DNA from: Myxococcota bacterium
GTDB taxonomy: Bacteria > Myxococcota_A > Polyangia > Polyangiales > Sandaracinaceae
Length of the DNA: 64,000 nt
Direction: 5' to 3'
Assembly (NCBI GenBank): GCA_036149055.1
Contig: JAYZQJ010000227.1
Span: forward strand, 32,001-96,000
The position numbers are program-made. The stretch's first letter is position 1, and each line of letters begins with the position of its first letter. Of the stretch, positions 27,001-33,000 are shown piece after piece.

Positions 27001-30000
27001 AGAGTCCGGGGCCGCGACGTGTCGCGAGGTCTGCCGCGAGCCCGGCCCCCCGAGCTGCAGCGTCGCGGGCGAGACCTGCACCGGCAACGCCCGCAGCTGG
27101 GGCGTCACCTACTGCCGGTGAGGCACGACTGTCGTGAGCCGCTATTTGGGCTCGGGCTCGGGCGCGCCGAACGGACCCTCGAGGGTGGAGCGGCGGGAGC
27201 GCGGGGGCAGCGCCGCGGGCGGCGGCACGCTGGGCACCGACGTCTTCGGCGGATCCGCGAAGCCCAGCATGCTGAGGAGCAGCGGCTCGATGCCGCGGCG
27301 GCGGAGCTCCGCGCTCGGCGTGGCCTCGCGGCGCACGAGATCGAAGACCGTCGCGTCGTCGAGGCTCATCGCGACCAGCGGCGAGTGGGTGGTCACGACC
27401 CACTGCACCCGCGGATGGAGCTCGGCGAGCGCCGGCAGGAGCTCCCGCTGGAGGCGCGGGTCGAGGTTGGTCTCGGGGTGATCGACGAGGACCACGCCGC
27501 TCGGCTCGAGCGCGCCGTCGCCGCTCCGCAGCCGCGACGCCTCGACCCGCATCATCACCTCGGCCCAGAGCCAGACCGCGGTGGCGTGGCCGAGGGACAG
27601 CCCGTCGAAGCCGACCCGGCGCCCGTCGGGCAGGTCGAGCTGCACCCCGCCGGGATCGAACGCGAGCCGGATCTCGGGCAGGTGCAGCAGCTTGCGCAGC
27701 GCGCTCCGGACCCGGAGGAACCACGCCTCGTGCAGCTTCTCGCGGAAGGTGTCGCCGCTCTCCCGGGCGAGGGTCTGCTCGGTCTTGCGGTTGACGAGGA
27801 GCTGCCCGAGCCGCTCGGCCACGCTCGCCTCCGGCGGCTGCGGATCGGTGTCGAGCGGGGTCGGCCGCGGAGCCGGCAAGAAGCGCGGCGACCGCGGCAG
27901 CGCGAGGTGGGCGAGGACGAGCCGCCCGCTCGCGTGCGCGGAGGCGACGTCGTCGTCCGTCCACGACACGCGCACCGGCCGCCCGAGGTGAGCCAGCTTC
28001 AGCGCCCGGTCGCGGGCCTCGCCGATCGGCGCGTCCACCTTCTCGGCCGGGTGCGCGCGCCCCTCGAGCGCCGCGCGGAGCTCGTCGACGATGCCCGACA
28101 GCAGGCTGCTCTTGCCCGAGCCGCTGGCCCCCAGCAGCACCAGCGACCGGGGCGCGTCCTCGTCCAGCGCGATGATCAGGGGCGACAGGTGGCGCAGCGT
28201 GCGCGCTTCGATGCGTCTCAGCCAGGTCATCGCGTGGCTCTCGTTTTCGCCCCTGGCTTCGCCCGGGTCAATGGCGGCTGCTACCTTGGCGCCGATGAGC
28301 GACGAACGAGGCCCCGACCCGCTCAGCCCGACCGAGCGCGCCGCGCGCATGGACGCGCCGCGACCGAAGCGCGACCTGCCGATCGCGCCCGAGCCGCCGC
28401 CGGGCAAGCGTCACCTCCCCCTGCTCGCGCCGCGGCCGAGCGACGCGCGCTACCGGCCGATCTACGCGGTCTGGGAGATCACCCTCGCCTGCGATCTCGC
28501 CTGCCGTCACTGCGGCTCGCGCGCCGGCCGGGATCGACCCGGGCAGCTCTCCACCGAGGAGTGCCTCGATCTCGTCGACCAGATGGCCGACCTCGGGGTG
28601 CAGGAGGTCAGCCTGATCGGAGGCGAGGCTTACCTGCACGACGGCTGGGTCGACATCATCCGCCGCATCCGCGAGCGCGGCATGATCGCCCTGATGACCA
28701 CCGGCGGGCGCGGGGTGACGAAGGAGCGCGCCCGGGCGGCCGCCGACGCGGGCCTCCAGAGCGTCAGCGTCTCGGTGGACGGCGTCGAAGCGACGCACGA
28801 TCGATTGCGGGGCGTGAAGGGCAGCCACCGCGCGGCCTTCGAGGCGTTCGACAACCTCCGAGAGGTCGGCATCAAGGTCAGCGCCAACACGCAGATCAAC
28901 CGGCTGAGCATGCCCGAGATGCCGCGGGTGCTCGACGACATCATCGCCGCCGGGATCCACTCCTGGCAGATCCAGCTCACCGTGGCGATGGGGCGCGCGG
29001 CCGACGAGCCGGAGATCCTGCTCCAGCCCTACGATCTCCTCGACCTCTTCCCGATGCTGGCCGACCTCAAGGCGCGCTGCGACGCGGCGAAGGTGCGGCT
29101 CTGGCCGGGGAACAACATCGGCTACTTCGGCCCCTACGAGTCGACGCTGCGCGGGACGATGCCGCGCGGGCACATGGCGTCCTGCGGCGCGGGCCGGGTC
29201 ACCCTCGGCGTCGAGGCGGACGGGGCGATCAAGGGCTGCCCCTCGCTGCCCACCGAGGCGTGGACGGGCGGGAACATCCGGGACGCCTCGCTGAAGGACA
29301 TCTGGGAGCGCTCGGCGCCGCTCCGCTACACCCGCGACCGCACGGTCGAGGATCTCTGGGGCTACTGCCGCACCTGCTACTACGCCGACGTCTGCCGCGC
29401 GGGCTGCACGTGGACCAGCTTCGTGCTCTTCGGCAAGGCGGGGAACAACCCCTACTGCCACCACCGCGCGCTCGAGCGGCAGCGCGAGGGCAAGCGCGAG
29501 CGGGTCGTCCGCAAGGCCGAGGCGCCCGGCCTGCCCTTCGACCACGGCGAGTTCGAGATCGTGCTCGAGGACGCACCTCGAACCGACGAGCCACCTGCGC
29601 TAGCATCGTCGCCGGGAGGGACCGGAACGTGAGTCACCTGCTTCCTTGCGACGGCTGCGACCGTCACGTGCGGGCCGACGAGCCCACGTGCCCGTTCTGC
29701 GGAGACAGCCTCCGCCACCGCGGCGCGCCGCAGCTCCCCGGGGCTCGCCTGGGACGCGCCGCGACCTTCGCGTTCGGCGCCGCCCTCGCGGCCGCGACCG
29801 CGAGCGGCTGCGGCGAGAGCCACGACCGGACGGACGGCGGTGAGCCGCCCGCCGACGCCGCCGAGCCGCCCGCCGACGCGGGGATCGAGCGAGACTCGGG
29901 CACGGTCGCGCCGCCGTACGGCACGCCGCCCGACGACGGAGGCTTCGCCCCCTTGTACGGTGGGGCGCCCGAAGAGTAGGAGACACGACCATGAGCTTGC

Positions 30001-33000
30001 TTCCTTGTCCGGGCTGCGACCGCCACGTGCGCGCGGCCGAGAGCACCTGCCCCTTCTGCGGAGAGGTCCTGCCGATGTCGCTGCGCAGCCGCGCGGCGCC
30101 GGTCCCCACCCGCCGGCTCGGGCGCGCGGCGACCTTCGCCTTCGGCGCCGCCCTCGCGGCGAGCGCCTGCGGCGGAGAAGTCACCCCGGAGGACTCGGGC
30201 GTGCAGCAGGACTCGGGCGCTACGCCGTCGGACGGCGGCGGGGCGGACGGCGGCGGTGACGTCGACTCCGGCGCGACCCCGGACCCGGACTCCGGCGTGG
30301 TGGCCGACGCGGGCTCCGCCCCGGAGGACGCGGGGACCGAGAGCGACTCCGGCGTCGAGACCGACGCGGGCGCGGCGCCGACCGACGCGGGCGGCGTGGT
30401 CCCGGCGTACGGCGGCCCGATGCCGATCGACGGCGGCCTGACCCGGCGCGACGGTGGCCTCTCCCGGCGCGATGGTGGTGGAGTGATGCCCCTCTACGGC
30501 AGCCCGCCCCCCAGCGAATGAGGCGACTGCTCTTCGCGCTGGCGCTCCTCGGCTGCGACGGCGCCACGGTCGCCGACGGCGGGCTCGCGATCGACGGCGG
30601 CCCGGAGGTCGTGGACGCCGGTCGCGCCGACGGCGGCGTCGACGCGGGCGGCGCGACCGGAGACGCGGGCGTCGACGCGGGCGCATCGGACGACGCGGGG
30701 CGCGACGACGCGGGCGCGCCCGACGCCGGGCCGAGCGGGCCGCTCCAGCTCTACGTGGCGCCCGACGGCGACGACACCCGCGACGGCCTCTCGGAGGCGA
30801 CCGCGGTGCTCAGCCTCGGCCGGGTGCACGAGCTCCTCGAGGCGCTCCGGCCCGAGCGGGACGTCGAGGTGCGGATCGCGCCGGGCACCTACCACGGGCA
30901 GACCGTGAGCTGGCGCTATCACCACCCGGAGCGCGAGATCCGCTTCATGCCGCTCGGCGACGAGCGCGACCGCCCGGTCTTCGACGGCTGCCTCGCCGAC
31001 GGCAGCTGCCCCGGCGGGACGTGGCTGCGGCTGCGGGTCTCGAGCGGCGCCCGGACGAACCTGCACTTCCGCTACCTCCGGGTGCAGCGCTACCAGACCG
31101 CGATCAGCCTCGACGGCAACCGCAACGATCCGGCGGCGTCGAACGGGGGCAACACGATCTTCGGCTGCTACTTCGACCGGATCGGCAACGTGTTCGCGCC
31201 GTCCCTCGACCCGTCGACCGCCGCGGTGCGCCTCGTCAACAGCGACGACAACCGCATCGAGAACAACCACTTCGTCGACGTCGTGAACACCCGGAGCGGC
31301 GGCCTGATCCACGCCCTCTACGTCGCCCACCTCAGCGACCGGAACACGATCGCGCGCAACCGCTTCCTCCGGAGCACGGGCGACCCGGTGCGCCTGCGCG
31401 ACTACTCCAACGACAACGTCATCACCGACAACCGCTTCATCCGGGTCGGGACCCACGCCGGCTACACCGACTGGTACTGCGACCACGACGCGCGGACCGA
31501 CTGCACCAAGCCCACGCCCGAGTGTCCGAGCTGGAACAACCAGTTCCGCGACAACCTGCTCGATGGCGACTGGACCTGCGGCGCGCTCGGCACCTTCCAC
31601 TACTTCCAGGACGACACCACCACCGGCTGCAGCCCACCGAGCGCCGGCGCCCGGCGCCTGAGGACGAGCGGCAACGAGTCGACCGCCGCGCCGTGCTCCA
31701 TGGAGTGAAGGTGCGGTACGGTGAGCGGGTGAGAGCGCTCTCCGGGATCGCCGCGCTGCTGCTCGCCGCCTGCACCGGCGGGAGCACCGTCTACGTGGAC
31801 GTGCGCACGGACTACGTGCCGGGCATCGAGTTCGCGGAGGCGCGGGCCGAGGTCGGCGCGGCCGGCGTGCTGCGGCGGGTGGATCGCGCGGCGGCGCGCG
31901 GCGAGGACTGGGTCGCCGGCCAGCGGGTGGGCCAGGTCGACGGGCTGGGATCGGGGACACACGAGATCCTGGTCGAGCTGCGGGCGAGCGACGGCGCCCT
32001 CGTGGCCACCCAGCGCGTGGTCCGCACCCTCTCGGGCGACGCCGCCGTCACCGTCGTGATCTCACGCGACTGCGGCGACGTGAGCTGCCCCGGGCCCCTC
32101 GACGACGCGGCGGCGACGAGCTGCCGCGGCGGACGCTGCGCGCCGCCCGAGTGCACCCCGGAGACCCCCGAGCGCTGCCCGGAGCCGGCCTGCGACGACG
32201 ACACGGACTGCGACGTCGGCGTCGACTGCGTGGCCGGGGTCTGCGCCGACGGCGTGTGCTTCCGCTCGGCCCAGGACTTCCGCTGCGCCGACGGCGAGTG
32301 GTGCGACCCGGACCAGGGCTGCGCGCCCCTGCCGGGCGGGCCGACCGACGGAGGCGTGCCCCCCGACGCCGGCTGCGCGGCGACGGTGGAGACCTCCTGC
32401 GCCGACGGCGTGGACGACGACTGCGACGGCGACGTCGACTGCGCGGACGACGACTGCGACGGCCGGACCTGCGCCGCCGACTCCGTGTGCGCGGCCGGGG
32501 TCTGCGGCGGGTGCGTGCCGAGCGGCGGGGTCGACGGCTGCGGCGGCGGCGACGAGAACTGCGACGGCGAGATCGACGAGGACTGCGGCTGCGTCCCCGG
32601 CAGCTGGATCGGCGGCACGATCGACACCCCCGGCGACGTGGGCCGCTACGCCGACGTCGCGCTCGACGCGGCCGGCGGCGTGCACGTGAGCTACCGGGAC
32701 AGCAGCGCCGACGACCTGCGCTACGCCTACCACCCCCCGAGCGGCTGGTGGACGATGGAGACGCTCGACTCGGAGGGAACGGTCGGCACCCACACCGACG
32801 TCGCGGCCGAGCCCGATGGATCCCTGCACGTCGTCTTCCACGACGCGACCAACCGCGACCTCCGCTACCGGCACCGCCGGGTCGACGGCGTGTGGGAGGA
32901 GGCGGTCATCGACGCGGTGGGCAGCGTCGGGCGCTACGGCAGCGTCGCCGTCGCCGACGACGGCACCGTGCACGTGGCCTATCAGGACTACGGCGCGAAC

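What a model noticed while it worked through the whole genome (the two positions that open the first line are those of the whole stretch)
28295..30521. Splicease systems whose substrates are zinc-ribbon lipoproteins with repeated xYG sites
Two PlpX-type radical SAM enzymes (g06902; g06377 at C208:4221-6926) lie beside five small proteins, with three more elsewhere (g00105, g04083, g06164), all of one build: N-terminal CxxC..CxFC ribbon, basic/hydrophobic signal ending in a Cys, acidic linker, one to five xYG-x-P sites. They are predicted lipid-anchored proteins carrying several alpha-keto-beta-amino acids, and the system is near core in Sandaracinaceae.
Evidence so far: Best NCBIfam model TIGR04103, E 5e-159 and 1e-145, below its cut-off; precursors have no hit. 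Enzyme in 28 of 31 family genomes. Precursor within 1.5 kb in 21 of 22 loci, nearly all with repeated xYG. Genome-wide motif scans.
(Added by a program. Inside this text positions count along the whole contig: contig position 32,001 is position 1 of the stretch shown here. "Call 12" and the like, gene names such as g00115 and contig names such as C1 are that model's own, and its searches are not shown. The text may have been shortened before it was handed on; [...] marks where a part breaks off. The agent that wrote the report below was given it as the finding of a first reader that could run no searches.)

Follow-up and report, generated by a model that had tools for sequence, protein, structure and literature searches.

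The report
Backbone-splicing enzyme with lipoprotein substrates
A myxobacterial enzyme related to those that cut tyrosine out of peptide backbones sits beside small predicted membrane-anchored proteins full of its target motif, and a small cysteine-rich module at their front appears to be the handle by which the enzyme grips them.

Summary
In detail: a radical SAM/SPASM enzyme (28295-29632) is followed by two precursors built as CxxC..CPFC ribbon, uncharged signal ending in a lipobox Cys, acidic linker, repeated xYG-x-P. The enzyme is not a TIGR04103 (PlpX-family) member but lies in its sister clade, with TIGR03913. New here: (1) the ribbon is homologous to a ribbon fused to the C-terminus of TIGR03913-type enzymes and the N-terminus of a Tropicibacter enzyme; a complex prediction docks it on the enzyme (0.77, best control 0.00), at residues kept in ribbon users only. 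It precedes the signal, so it is a leader, not part of the mature lipoprotein. (2) In 22 related loci the YG directly follows the lipobox Cys, mostly as the only site. (3) A more distant clade fuses enzyme, signal, lipobox and YG repeats in one chain, without a ribbon. Homologues occur in 111 of 301 phylum genomes. Splicing, zinc binding and lipidation are untested. Precedent: NCBIfam TIGR04133/04134 already pairs a distant radical SAM enzyme with a lipoprotein bearing EYGSP, and Scott et al. 2022 (unread) may include this clade. Verdict: new variant of a known kind.

The parts
28295..29632 (+). Radical SAM/SPASM enzyme, predicted splicease (445 aa, P0001); carries no ribbon of its own
   Evidence: keeps 116 of 134 residues invariant in the TIGR04103 clade
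28490..28513 (+). CxxxCxxC radical SAM motif (C66-C73)
29126..29173 (+). Linker between SAM and SPASM domains (F278-H293), predicted ribbon-binding surface
   Evidence: confident contacts; H293 and F278 rank 1 and 6 of 343 columns
29378..29383 (+). Y362-Y363 in the SPASM domain, predicted ribbon contacts
   Evidence: ranks 7 and 5
29629..29979 (+). Precursor 1 (116 aa, P0002); start codon overlaps the enzyme's stop (GTGA)
29647..29700 (+). Ribbon of precursor 1 (C7-C24), predicted docking module
29746..29811 (+). Basic/uncharged signal of precursor 1 ending in lipobox Cys61
29914..29922 (+). Predicted splice site PYG (Tyr97) of precursor 1
29953..29961 (+). Predicted splice site LYG (Tyr110) of precursor 1
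29991..30521 (+). Precursor 2 (176 aa, P0003), AGGAG upstream of its ATG
30006..30059 (+). Ribbon of precursor 2 (C6-C23)
30168..30170 (+). Lipobox Cys60 of precursor 2
30405..30413 (+). Predicted splice site AYG (Tyr140) of precursor 2
30492..30500 (+). Predicted splice site LYG (Tyr169) of precursor 2

Best explanation
A two-component tyramine-splicing system whose substrates are lipoprotein precursors. In the cytoplasm the precursor's N-terminal four-Cys ribbon binds the enzyme at the SAM-SPASM linker and SPASM surface, playing the part that PlpY or the RhaA leader helix plays in known spliceases (recruit and/or activate). The enzyme excises tyramine at xYG sites in the disordered acidic part, giving alpha-keto-beta-amino acids (mostly Leu, Ala, Pro side chains). 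The chain is then exported after modification by its internal signal, lipidated at the lipobox Cys and cut by signal peptidase II, which discards ribbon and signal as the leader and leaves a lipid-tethered acidic linker showing one to five ketoamides. Shown in sequence: architecture, coupling, ribbon homology. Predicted by a model: docking. Inferred: splicing (about 0.85), docking/activation (0.75), lipidation and export (0.75). Purpose is the weakest step: tethered serine/cysteine protease inhibitors protecting the envelope (about 0.4).
For: Enzyme: sister clade to TIGR04103, 98/89 support; 116 of 134 invariant residues kept, against 42% for a TIGR04133 enzyme. Substrate motif: 144/155 and 308/342 Tyr followed by Gly; with a ribbon-only profile 64 of 66 hits have YG and 65 of 66 a lipobox-type first Cys, against 23 of 381 generic CxxC..CxxC ORFs, none with both. 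Coupling: 57 of 60 genomes with a precursor hit have the enzyme; 3 of 190 enzyme-less genomes have weak hits. Ribbon homology: a profile from 15 enzyme-borne ribbons ranks 7 of the 8 own precursors as the top 7 of 101,842 ORFs. Docking: score 0.77, best of 3 controls 0.00; the mark was reached by 116 of 157 solved complexes and 2 of 215 mismatched pairs; runs agree in at least 26% of contacts, partner pLDDT at least 55; all confident contacts come from ribbon residues 2-22; no close solved relative of the enzyme. Four of the 13 interface residues are among the 7 columns of 343 that best separate ribbon users from non-users. Fusions of enzyme to signal, lipobox and YG repeats lack the ribbon. 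Two signal peptidase II genes and Lgt-like genes are in the genome. Ketoamide spliceotides inhibit proteases (PMC11626197).
Against: No experiment on any member of the ribbon clade was seen in the papers read. The enzyme is below both NCBIfam cut-offs and differs at 18 of 134 TIGR04103-invariant positions. Only 2 of 5 DUF1843 precursors beside ribbon-bearing enzymes have YG; the others have Tyr-Ala or Tyr-Met. The signal is internal, about 40-60 residues from the start, and position -3 of the lipobox is often Ala or Thr rather than Leu/Val/Ile (54 of 119 L/V/I); no signal-peptide predictor was available. Ribbon users form one clade, so the residue contrast is one or two evolutionary events, and its cut-off was chosen afterwards. 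The three folding runs agree in only about a quarter of contacts and my own alignments were used. Lgt hits are under the TIGR00544 cut-off. In the CYG clade splicing would alter the residue that Lgt and signal peptidase II must recognise.
Confidence: 0.58

Rival explanations
1. Splicing and ribbon docking are right, but the uncharged segment is a leader helix or uncleaved membrane anchor and the Cys is not lipidated; the product stays inside or is released by another protease.
For: The RLGRAA-FAFG stretch is more conserved than a signal needs; known binary spliceases use a leader helix (PMC11414181); the signal is internal; a degenerate copy is fused in front of the Tropicibacter enzyme.
Against: A single Cys closes the uncharged stretch in 112 of 120 homologues, with Ala/Gly/Ser before it in 116 of 119; canonical LSAC/LAAC boxes in related clades; rare variants replace it with an AxA signal peptidase I-type site (L108, P0240); the model gave no confident enzyme contact for this segment (which is not evidence of absence); GG follows the Cys in only 8 of 54.
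Confidence: 0.15
2. The enzyme acts on the same Tyr but does other chemistry (cross-link, cyclophane, cleavage), the ribbon clade having diverged from true spliceases.
For: Below the TIGR04103 cut-off; 18 invariant positions differ; Tyr not always followed by Gly in DUF1843 precursors and in 3 of 120 homologues (one of these has an unrelated C-terminus).
Against: The Gly after Tyr is kept at about 90%, and site contexts such as PLYG-x-P match the PlpA-derived splice tags (PMC10533398 Table 1) and the Nostoc precursor; sister position to TIGR04103.
Confidence: 0.12
3. The ribbon is not an enzyme handle but a metal/redox sensor or an export timer that holds the chain in the cytoplasm.
For: Four-Cys ribbons are common and promiscuous; one generic ribbon scores 17.4 bits, above 4 of 15 enzyme-borne ribbons.
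Against: The same ribbon is fused to either end of related enzymes, is absent where enzyme and substrate are one chain, and is docked by the model.
Confidence: 0.1
4. Purpose rival, compatible with the main mechanism: the ketoamides are electrophiles for covalent tethering or cross-linking in the envelope (or signals), not protease inhibitors.
For: Near-core presence (28 of 31 genomes) and several paralogues per genome fit a housekeeping role; long acidic spacers with a site near the C-terminus (last YG 6-13 residues from the end in the complete precursors listed) resemble tethers.
Against: Pro precedes the X residue in 83 of 144 sites and X is mostly Leu/Ala/Pro, like Ala-Ala-Pro-X serine protease substrates (recalled); tested spliceotides inhibit proteases. 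The Pro may equally be enzyme recognition.
Confidence: 0.25

Closest known systems
Type I spliceases PlpXY / PcpXY (TIGR04103, Nif11-leader precursors)
   Same: Radical SAM/SPASM core, 54.5% identity to a Nostoc member over the cut-off; XYG sites, several per precursor; small docking partner needed
   Different: Below cut-off, sister clade; no Y-protein or Nif11 leader hit in the genome (single-sequence queries); precursor has ribbon, signal and lipobox
Binary spliceases of types II, III, V (RhaX/RasX, RcsX)
   Same: Two components; the substrate's own leader is predicted to bind and activate the enzyme (PMC11414181)
   Different: Those leaders are helices cut at a double-glycine site (supplement passages); here a four-Cys ribbon and a lipoprotein signal
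TIGR03913 enzymes with DUF1843 (PF08898) peptides
   Same: Same clade; same ribbon; share H293, Y362, Y363
   Different: Ribbon is on the enzyme's C-terminus; the two loci read have short leaderless helical peptides with Tyr near the N-terminus and no signal
TIGR04133/TIGR04134 radical SAM plus lipoprotein system of Bacteroidota
   Same: Radical SAM/SPASM gene beside a lipoprotein with lipobox and an EYGSP motif (one Parabacteroides locus)
   Different: Enzyme only 27.6% identical and keeps 42% of TIGR04103-invariant residues; ordinary N-terminal signal, no ribbon, one YG site, folded Ig-like domains; no report of its chemistry was found

Membership tests
Spliceases / spliceotides | Radical SAM enzyme with SPASM domain | tested here: met
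   PF04055 and PF13186 over cut-off; Cys pattern
Spliceases / spliceotides | Close homology to PlpX-type enzymes | tested here: met
   Sister to the TIGR04103 clade, 98/89; 116 of 134 invariant residues; PlpX itself was not fetched
Spliceases / spliceotides | Adjacent precursor with conserved XYG | tested here: met
   controls in 103
Spliceases / spliceotides | Tyramine excision giving alpha-keto-beta-amino acid | not testable with these tools
   needs co-expression and mass spectrometry
TIGR04103 (PlpX family, type I) | Score above the curated cut-off of 725 bits | tested here: not met
   529.3 and 485.5 bits
TIGR04103 (PlpX family, type I) | Y protein and Nif11-type leader | tested here: not met
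   no hit at E below 0.26 with one Nostoc Y and one Nif11 precursor as queries; Y proteins diverge, so this is weak
TIGR03913 (DUF1843-associated) | Score above 591.75 bits, C-terminal ribbon on the enzyme, DUF1843 peptides | tested here: not met
   477 bits, matching model positions 14-390 of 477; no DUF1843 hit in genome or phylum loci
Spliceotide types II, III, V | Helical leader ending in double glycine | tested here: not met
   GG after the Cys in 8 of 54; segment is uncharged. Type IV and any later types could not be read
TIGR04133/TIGR04134 | Scores above cut-offs (425; 39.8 bits) | tested here: not met
   156 bits; best genome hit 22.1 bits elsewhere
Bacterial lipoproteins | Basic n-region, uncharged h-region, lipobox Cys | tested here: met
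   but the signal is internal, behind the ribbon
Bacterial lipoproteins | Diacylglyceryl-Cys and signal peptidase II cleavage | not testable with these tools
   machinery genes present
Zinc ribbons | Zinc bound by four Cys | tested here: inconclusive
   four invariant Cys; Pfam ribbon hits all under cut-off

The most novel reading that the evidence does not exclude
An undescribed, phylum-wide pathway for editing the backbone of lipoproteins: a portable four-Cys docking module moves between substrate and either end of the enzyme (a natural form of the leader-enzyme fusion that was engineered for RhaX); in one subclade the lipid-bearing Cys itself becomes a beta-amino-alpha-keto acid, a lipoprotein anchor not seen before; and in a deeper clade the enzyme is the leader of its own lipoprotein substrate and splices itself before export.
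Probability: 0.3. Interest if true: 0.88.

Novelty: new variant of a known kind. Interest (0 to 1): 0.7.

Why it matters
The natural end products and roles of spliceotides are reported as elusive (PMC9811515). A near-core system with membrane-tethered products in a family with a cultured member (P0140 is named Sandaracinus amylolyticus) makes the native product and its role directly testable by membrane proteomics. It would join RiPP chemistry to the lipoprotein pathway, with signal peptidase II as leader peptidase. A ribbon of about 25 residues that recruits or activates the enzyme gives a ready design for single-chain spliceases that accept Pro, Ala and possibly Cys at X, useful for protein labelling. 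It also explains the C-terminal domain of TIGR03913 enzymes.

Tried and rejected
Scott et al. 2022 and the mechanism paper PMC11879070 are not held; figures of alignments in the PMC11414181 supplement are pictures and gave only legends. Literature searches that found no description of ribbon-led or lipoprotein splicease substrates; subscription journals are mostly outside the library. A FastTree tree suggested that type I enzymes nest among ribbon-precursor enzymes; the IQ-TREE tree did not uphold it, so no claim of ancestry is made. RNA runs: contigs from RNA libraries of two studies cover parts of the locus, one spanning 29515-30336, but contigs cannot show transcription and flanking DNA is covered as well: no conclusion. 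A fold of a TIGR03913 enzyme gave a folded ribbon (pLDDT about 80, pTM 0.80) but no contact list. ESM Atlas: only unnamed Myxococcota clusters. A twin-arginine export route was considered: RR in 22 of 65 n-regions, no consensus. P0267 (truncated enzyme joined to a precursor) was dropped as a probable frameshift or assembly artefact. The downstream beta-helix lipoprotein gene was found in no other locus and is left out of the system. Earlier scan notes were not available.
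Full report
Observation. The window holds a 445-residue radical SAM/SPASM gene at 28295-29632 followed by two small genes at 29629-29979 and 29991-30521. The first overlaps the enzyme's stop codon. Both have a CxxC-x-H-x8-CPFC ribbon, a basic then uncharged stretch ending in Cys, an acidic Gly/Ala/Pro/Asp linker and two xYG-x-P sites. The genome has a second enzyme on C208 (57% identical) and eight such precursors in all. The NCBIfam scores and the 28 of 31 family count are reproduced (the tally includes unpublished G029). Precursors lie within 1.5 kb in 28 of 30 family loci, the two misses being cut by contig ends.

The motif is not chance. In 48 complete family precursors 144 of 155 Tyr after the Cys are followed by Gly. 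A profile of ribbon plus signal only, which holds no YG, found 232 proteins; of the 120 listed, 117 have YG and 308 of 342 Tyr are followed by Gly. With a ribbon-only profile on 80 phylum loci, 65 of 66 hits have a lipobox-type first Cys and 64 of 66 have YG. Controls from the own genome: 23 of 381 generic CxxC..CxxC ORFs meet the lipobox rule, none with YG as well; 42 of 460 Tyr in 217 acidic lipoprotein-like ORFs are followed by Gly.

Spread. Enzyme homologues at E 1e-50 or better occur in 111 of 301 phylum genomes (own included; close and distant clades together) and precursor hits in 60; 57 of the 60 have the enzyme, and the 3 others are weak hits among 190 enzyme-less genomes. Kin are not independent, so this is not a statistical test. 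I fetched 80 of these loci, chosen down the score list. Of the 60 high-scoring ones 51 have a ribbon precursor by rule and 9 do not, though inspection found variants in 4 of the 9; none of the 20 low-scoring ones has one.

The enzyme's place. It is under the cut-offs of TIGR04103 (529 of 725 bits) and TIGR03913 (477 of 592). InterPro's family for PlpX is named in PMC11002830 (passages); that it corresponds to TIGR04103 is recalled. In an IQ-TREE tree of 56 rows that I picked from about 270 (LG+G4, mixture off), all 39 ribbon-using enzymes form one clade (95/86), sister to the TIGR04103 clade (together 98/89). An earlier FastTree tree that nested TIGR04103 among them was not upheld. The window enzyme keeps 116 of 134 residues invariant among 120 TIGR04103-clade proteins; the distant clade keeps a median 62%, a TIGR04133 enzyme 42%. 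Splicing is therefore inferred, not shown.

The ribbon is a portable module. Annotated plasmid loci showed that the Azospirillum TIGR03913 enzyme and an Aureibacter enzyme, both beside DUF1843 peptides, end in a similar ribbon, and that a Tropicibacter enzyme begins with ribbon plus a degenerate signal. The window enzyme matches only positions 14-390 of the 477-position TIGR03913 model, and one precursor ribbon weakly hits positions 428-457 (E 0.042). None of the 120 nearest homologues and none of 119 TIGR04103-clade proteins carries a ribbon. A profile built from 15 enzyme-borne ribbons ranks 7 of the 8 own precursors as the top 7 of 101,842 ORFs; both sets share the 18-residue span (173 of 184; 14 of 15), a hydrophobic residue before the first Cys and His/Tyr/Phe three residues after the second. 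In the other direction 11 of 15 enzyme-borne ribbons score above the best generic ribbon (17.4 bits) and 4 do not.

Docking. A complex prediction of enzyme (residues 20-428) with the 61-residue precursor N-terminus scored 0.77, best of 3 controls 0.00; the mark was reached by 116 of 157 solved complexes and 2 of 215 mismatched pairs, counts that hold only roughly for my own alignments; the runs agree in at least 26% of contacts and partner pLDDT is at least 55. All confident contacts are from ribbon residues 2-22 to enzyme 278-283, 291, 293, 362-366 and 390. The nearest solved structure by sequence is SkfB at E 9e-22, so memory of a like complex is unlikely but not excluded. Separately, ranking 343 columns by residues shared by ribbon users (48 + 17 + 11 sequences) and lacking in non-users (120 + 28) put H293, Y363, F278 and Y362 at ranks 1, 5, 6 and 7 (hypergeometric 4e-5 with a cut-off chosen afterwards). 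Since users are one clade this is few independent events. PMC11414181 (parts 1-3 of 4 of the text) shows that PlpY and the RhaA leader helix activate their enzymes and still work when fused to the enzyme C-terminus; the ribbon looks like a natural parallel. Whether it uses the same site I could not tell.

Export. The Cys is the only one after the ribbon in 112 of 120 homologues, with Ala/Gly/Ser at -1 in 116 of 119 and no charged residue in the 14 before it in 104 of 119; Leu/Val/Ile at -3 in only 54 of 119. Two variants have an AxA site instead (P0240, L108). The genome has two signal peptidase II genes and Lgt-like genes under the TIGR00544 cut-off. By established lipoprotein biology the ribbon would be removed with the signal, and a cytoplasmic radical SAM enzyme must act before export. 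An internal signal is unusual and lipidation is untested.

Two further builds. First, in 9 family loci and 13 phylum loci the lipobox Cys is followed at once by YG; in 20 of these 23 precursors it is the only YG. CYG occurs in 0 of 354 lipoprotein-like control ORFs. Five of 7 such precursors scanned reach the PF11617 cut-off. If spliced, the anchor Cys itself becomes the ketoamide residue. The window's genome has no such locus. Second, a clade at about 40% identity fuses enzyme, signal, lipobox and YG repeats. Of 80 GTDB loci 22 are such fusions by rule, 37 are short enzymes, 4 have other long extensions (the rule missed at least one fusion) and 17 were not parsed; 116 of 152 Tyr in the fused part are followed by Gly (Gly 6%); no ribbon hit occurs in any of the 80. 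Several short ones have separate lipoprotein precursors with a helical leader instead. That these distant enzymes splice is less sure.

Purpose. X is Leu 57, Ala 49, Pro 20 of 144, with Pro before it in 83. That resembles serine protease substrates (recalled), and tested spliceotides inhibit proteases (PMC11626197 passages; PMC10849128 passages), so tethered inhibitors are my first guess; covalent tethering in the envelope is the main rival. The same Pro occurs in PlpA-derived tags (PMC10533398 passages), so it may only be recognition. One YG site of RcsA was not modified, and 3 of 5 DUF1843 peptides lack the Gly.

What is known. Reviews state that Scott et al. 2022 found YG-linked PlpX-like enzymes in 189 genera and confirmed 27 pairs, with distinct classes of precursor proteins (PMC9811515 passages); types II, III and V have double-glycine leaders (supplement passages). 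That paper was not readable. A BLAST-based survey would probably have caught enzymes 55% identical to the PlpX family, so I put about two in three on this clade being listed there, and less on the ribbon, CYG and fusion points. NCBIfam already pairs a distant enzyme with a lipoprotein; the one locus read has a lipobox and EYGSP. Searches found no account of ribbon-led or lipid-anchored splicease substrates. Other papers seen as passages only and of little bearing: PMC10994174, PMC10373908, PMC13647313, PMC11876861.

Verdict. Real, works like a binary splicease system, not a member of TIGR04103, TIGR03913 or TIGR04133 by their cut-offs. New variant of a known kind; interest 0.7.

Noticed in passing
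window 27142-28230 (-): A divergently oriented AAA ATPase gene (PF13304) lies upstream of the enzyme here and in 6 other family loci; probably synteny only.
   Followed up: partly
window 30518-31708 (+): Lipoprotein with a DAG-rich linker and a beta-helix (NosD-like) domain whose ATG overlaps the stop of precursor 2; found in no other locus examined.
   Followed up: partly
L035:3695-5317 (Tropicibacter plasmid) and P0251/P0516: Enzyme with ribbon and degenerate signal fused to its N-terminus, nested among ribbon-precursor enzymes; the two neighbours translated have no YG, so its substrate is unknown.
   Followed up: partly
L118:3539-4036, L120:5191-6213, L142, L143, L175, L190, L199, L206, L207: Distant-clade enzymes with separate lipoprotein precursors led by a helix (about LxxYLxxxCxxLD) instead of a ribbon, with Cys/Asp-rich repeats and several YG sites.
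   Followed up: no
L122, L161, L172: Distant-clade enzymes beside short signal-less peptides with three close xYG repeats.
   Followed up: no
L173:8534-9484 (-): A secreted-looking protein with 34 YG in LYGG/SYGL repeats near a distant-clade enzyme.
   Followed up: no
L108:2555-3538: Ribbon precursor with an AxA-type signal, one AVYG site and a long folded C-terminal part without Pfam hit.
   Followed up: partly
L131, L134: Tandem pairs of distant radical SAM enzymes with no evident YG precursor within about 3.5 kb.
   Followed up: no
G000 C4:17239-17683 and C128:142495-142953 (L038, L039): Two orphan precursors end in a Cys-bearing C-PPYG-x-PP site and have more basic or helical linkers; the C128 one has a twin-arginine-like SRRHF before its signal.
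   Followed up: no
G000 C206:28682-30855: Two signal peptidase II genes in tandem beside an Lgt-like gene; six Lgt-like hits in the genome.
   Followed up: no
L059, L061: Loci with two enzyme paralogues a few kb apart, interleaved with 2-3 precursors.
   Followed up: no
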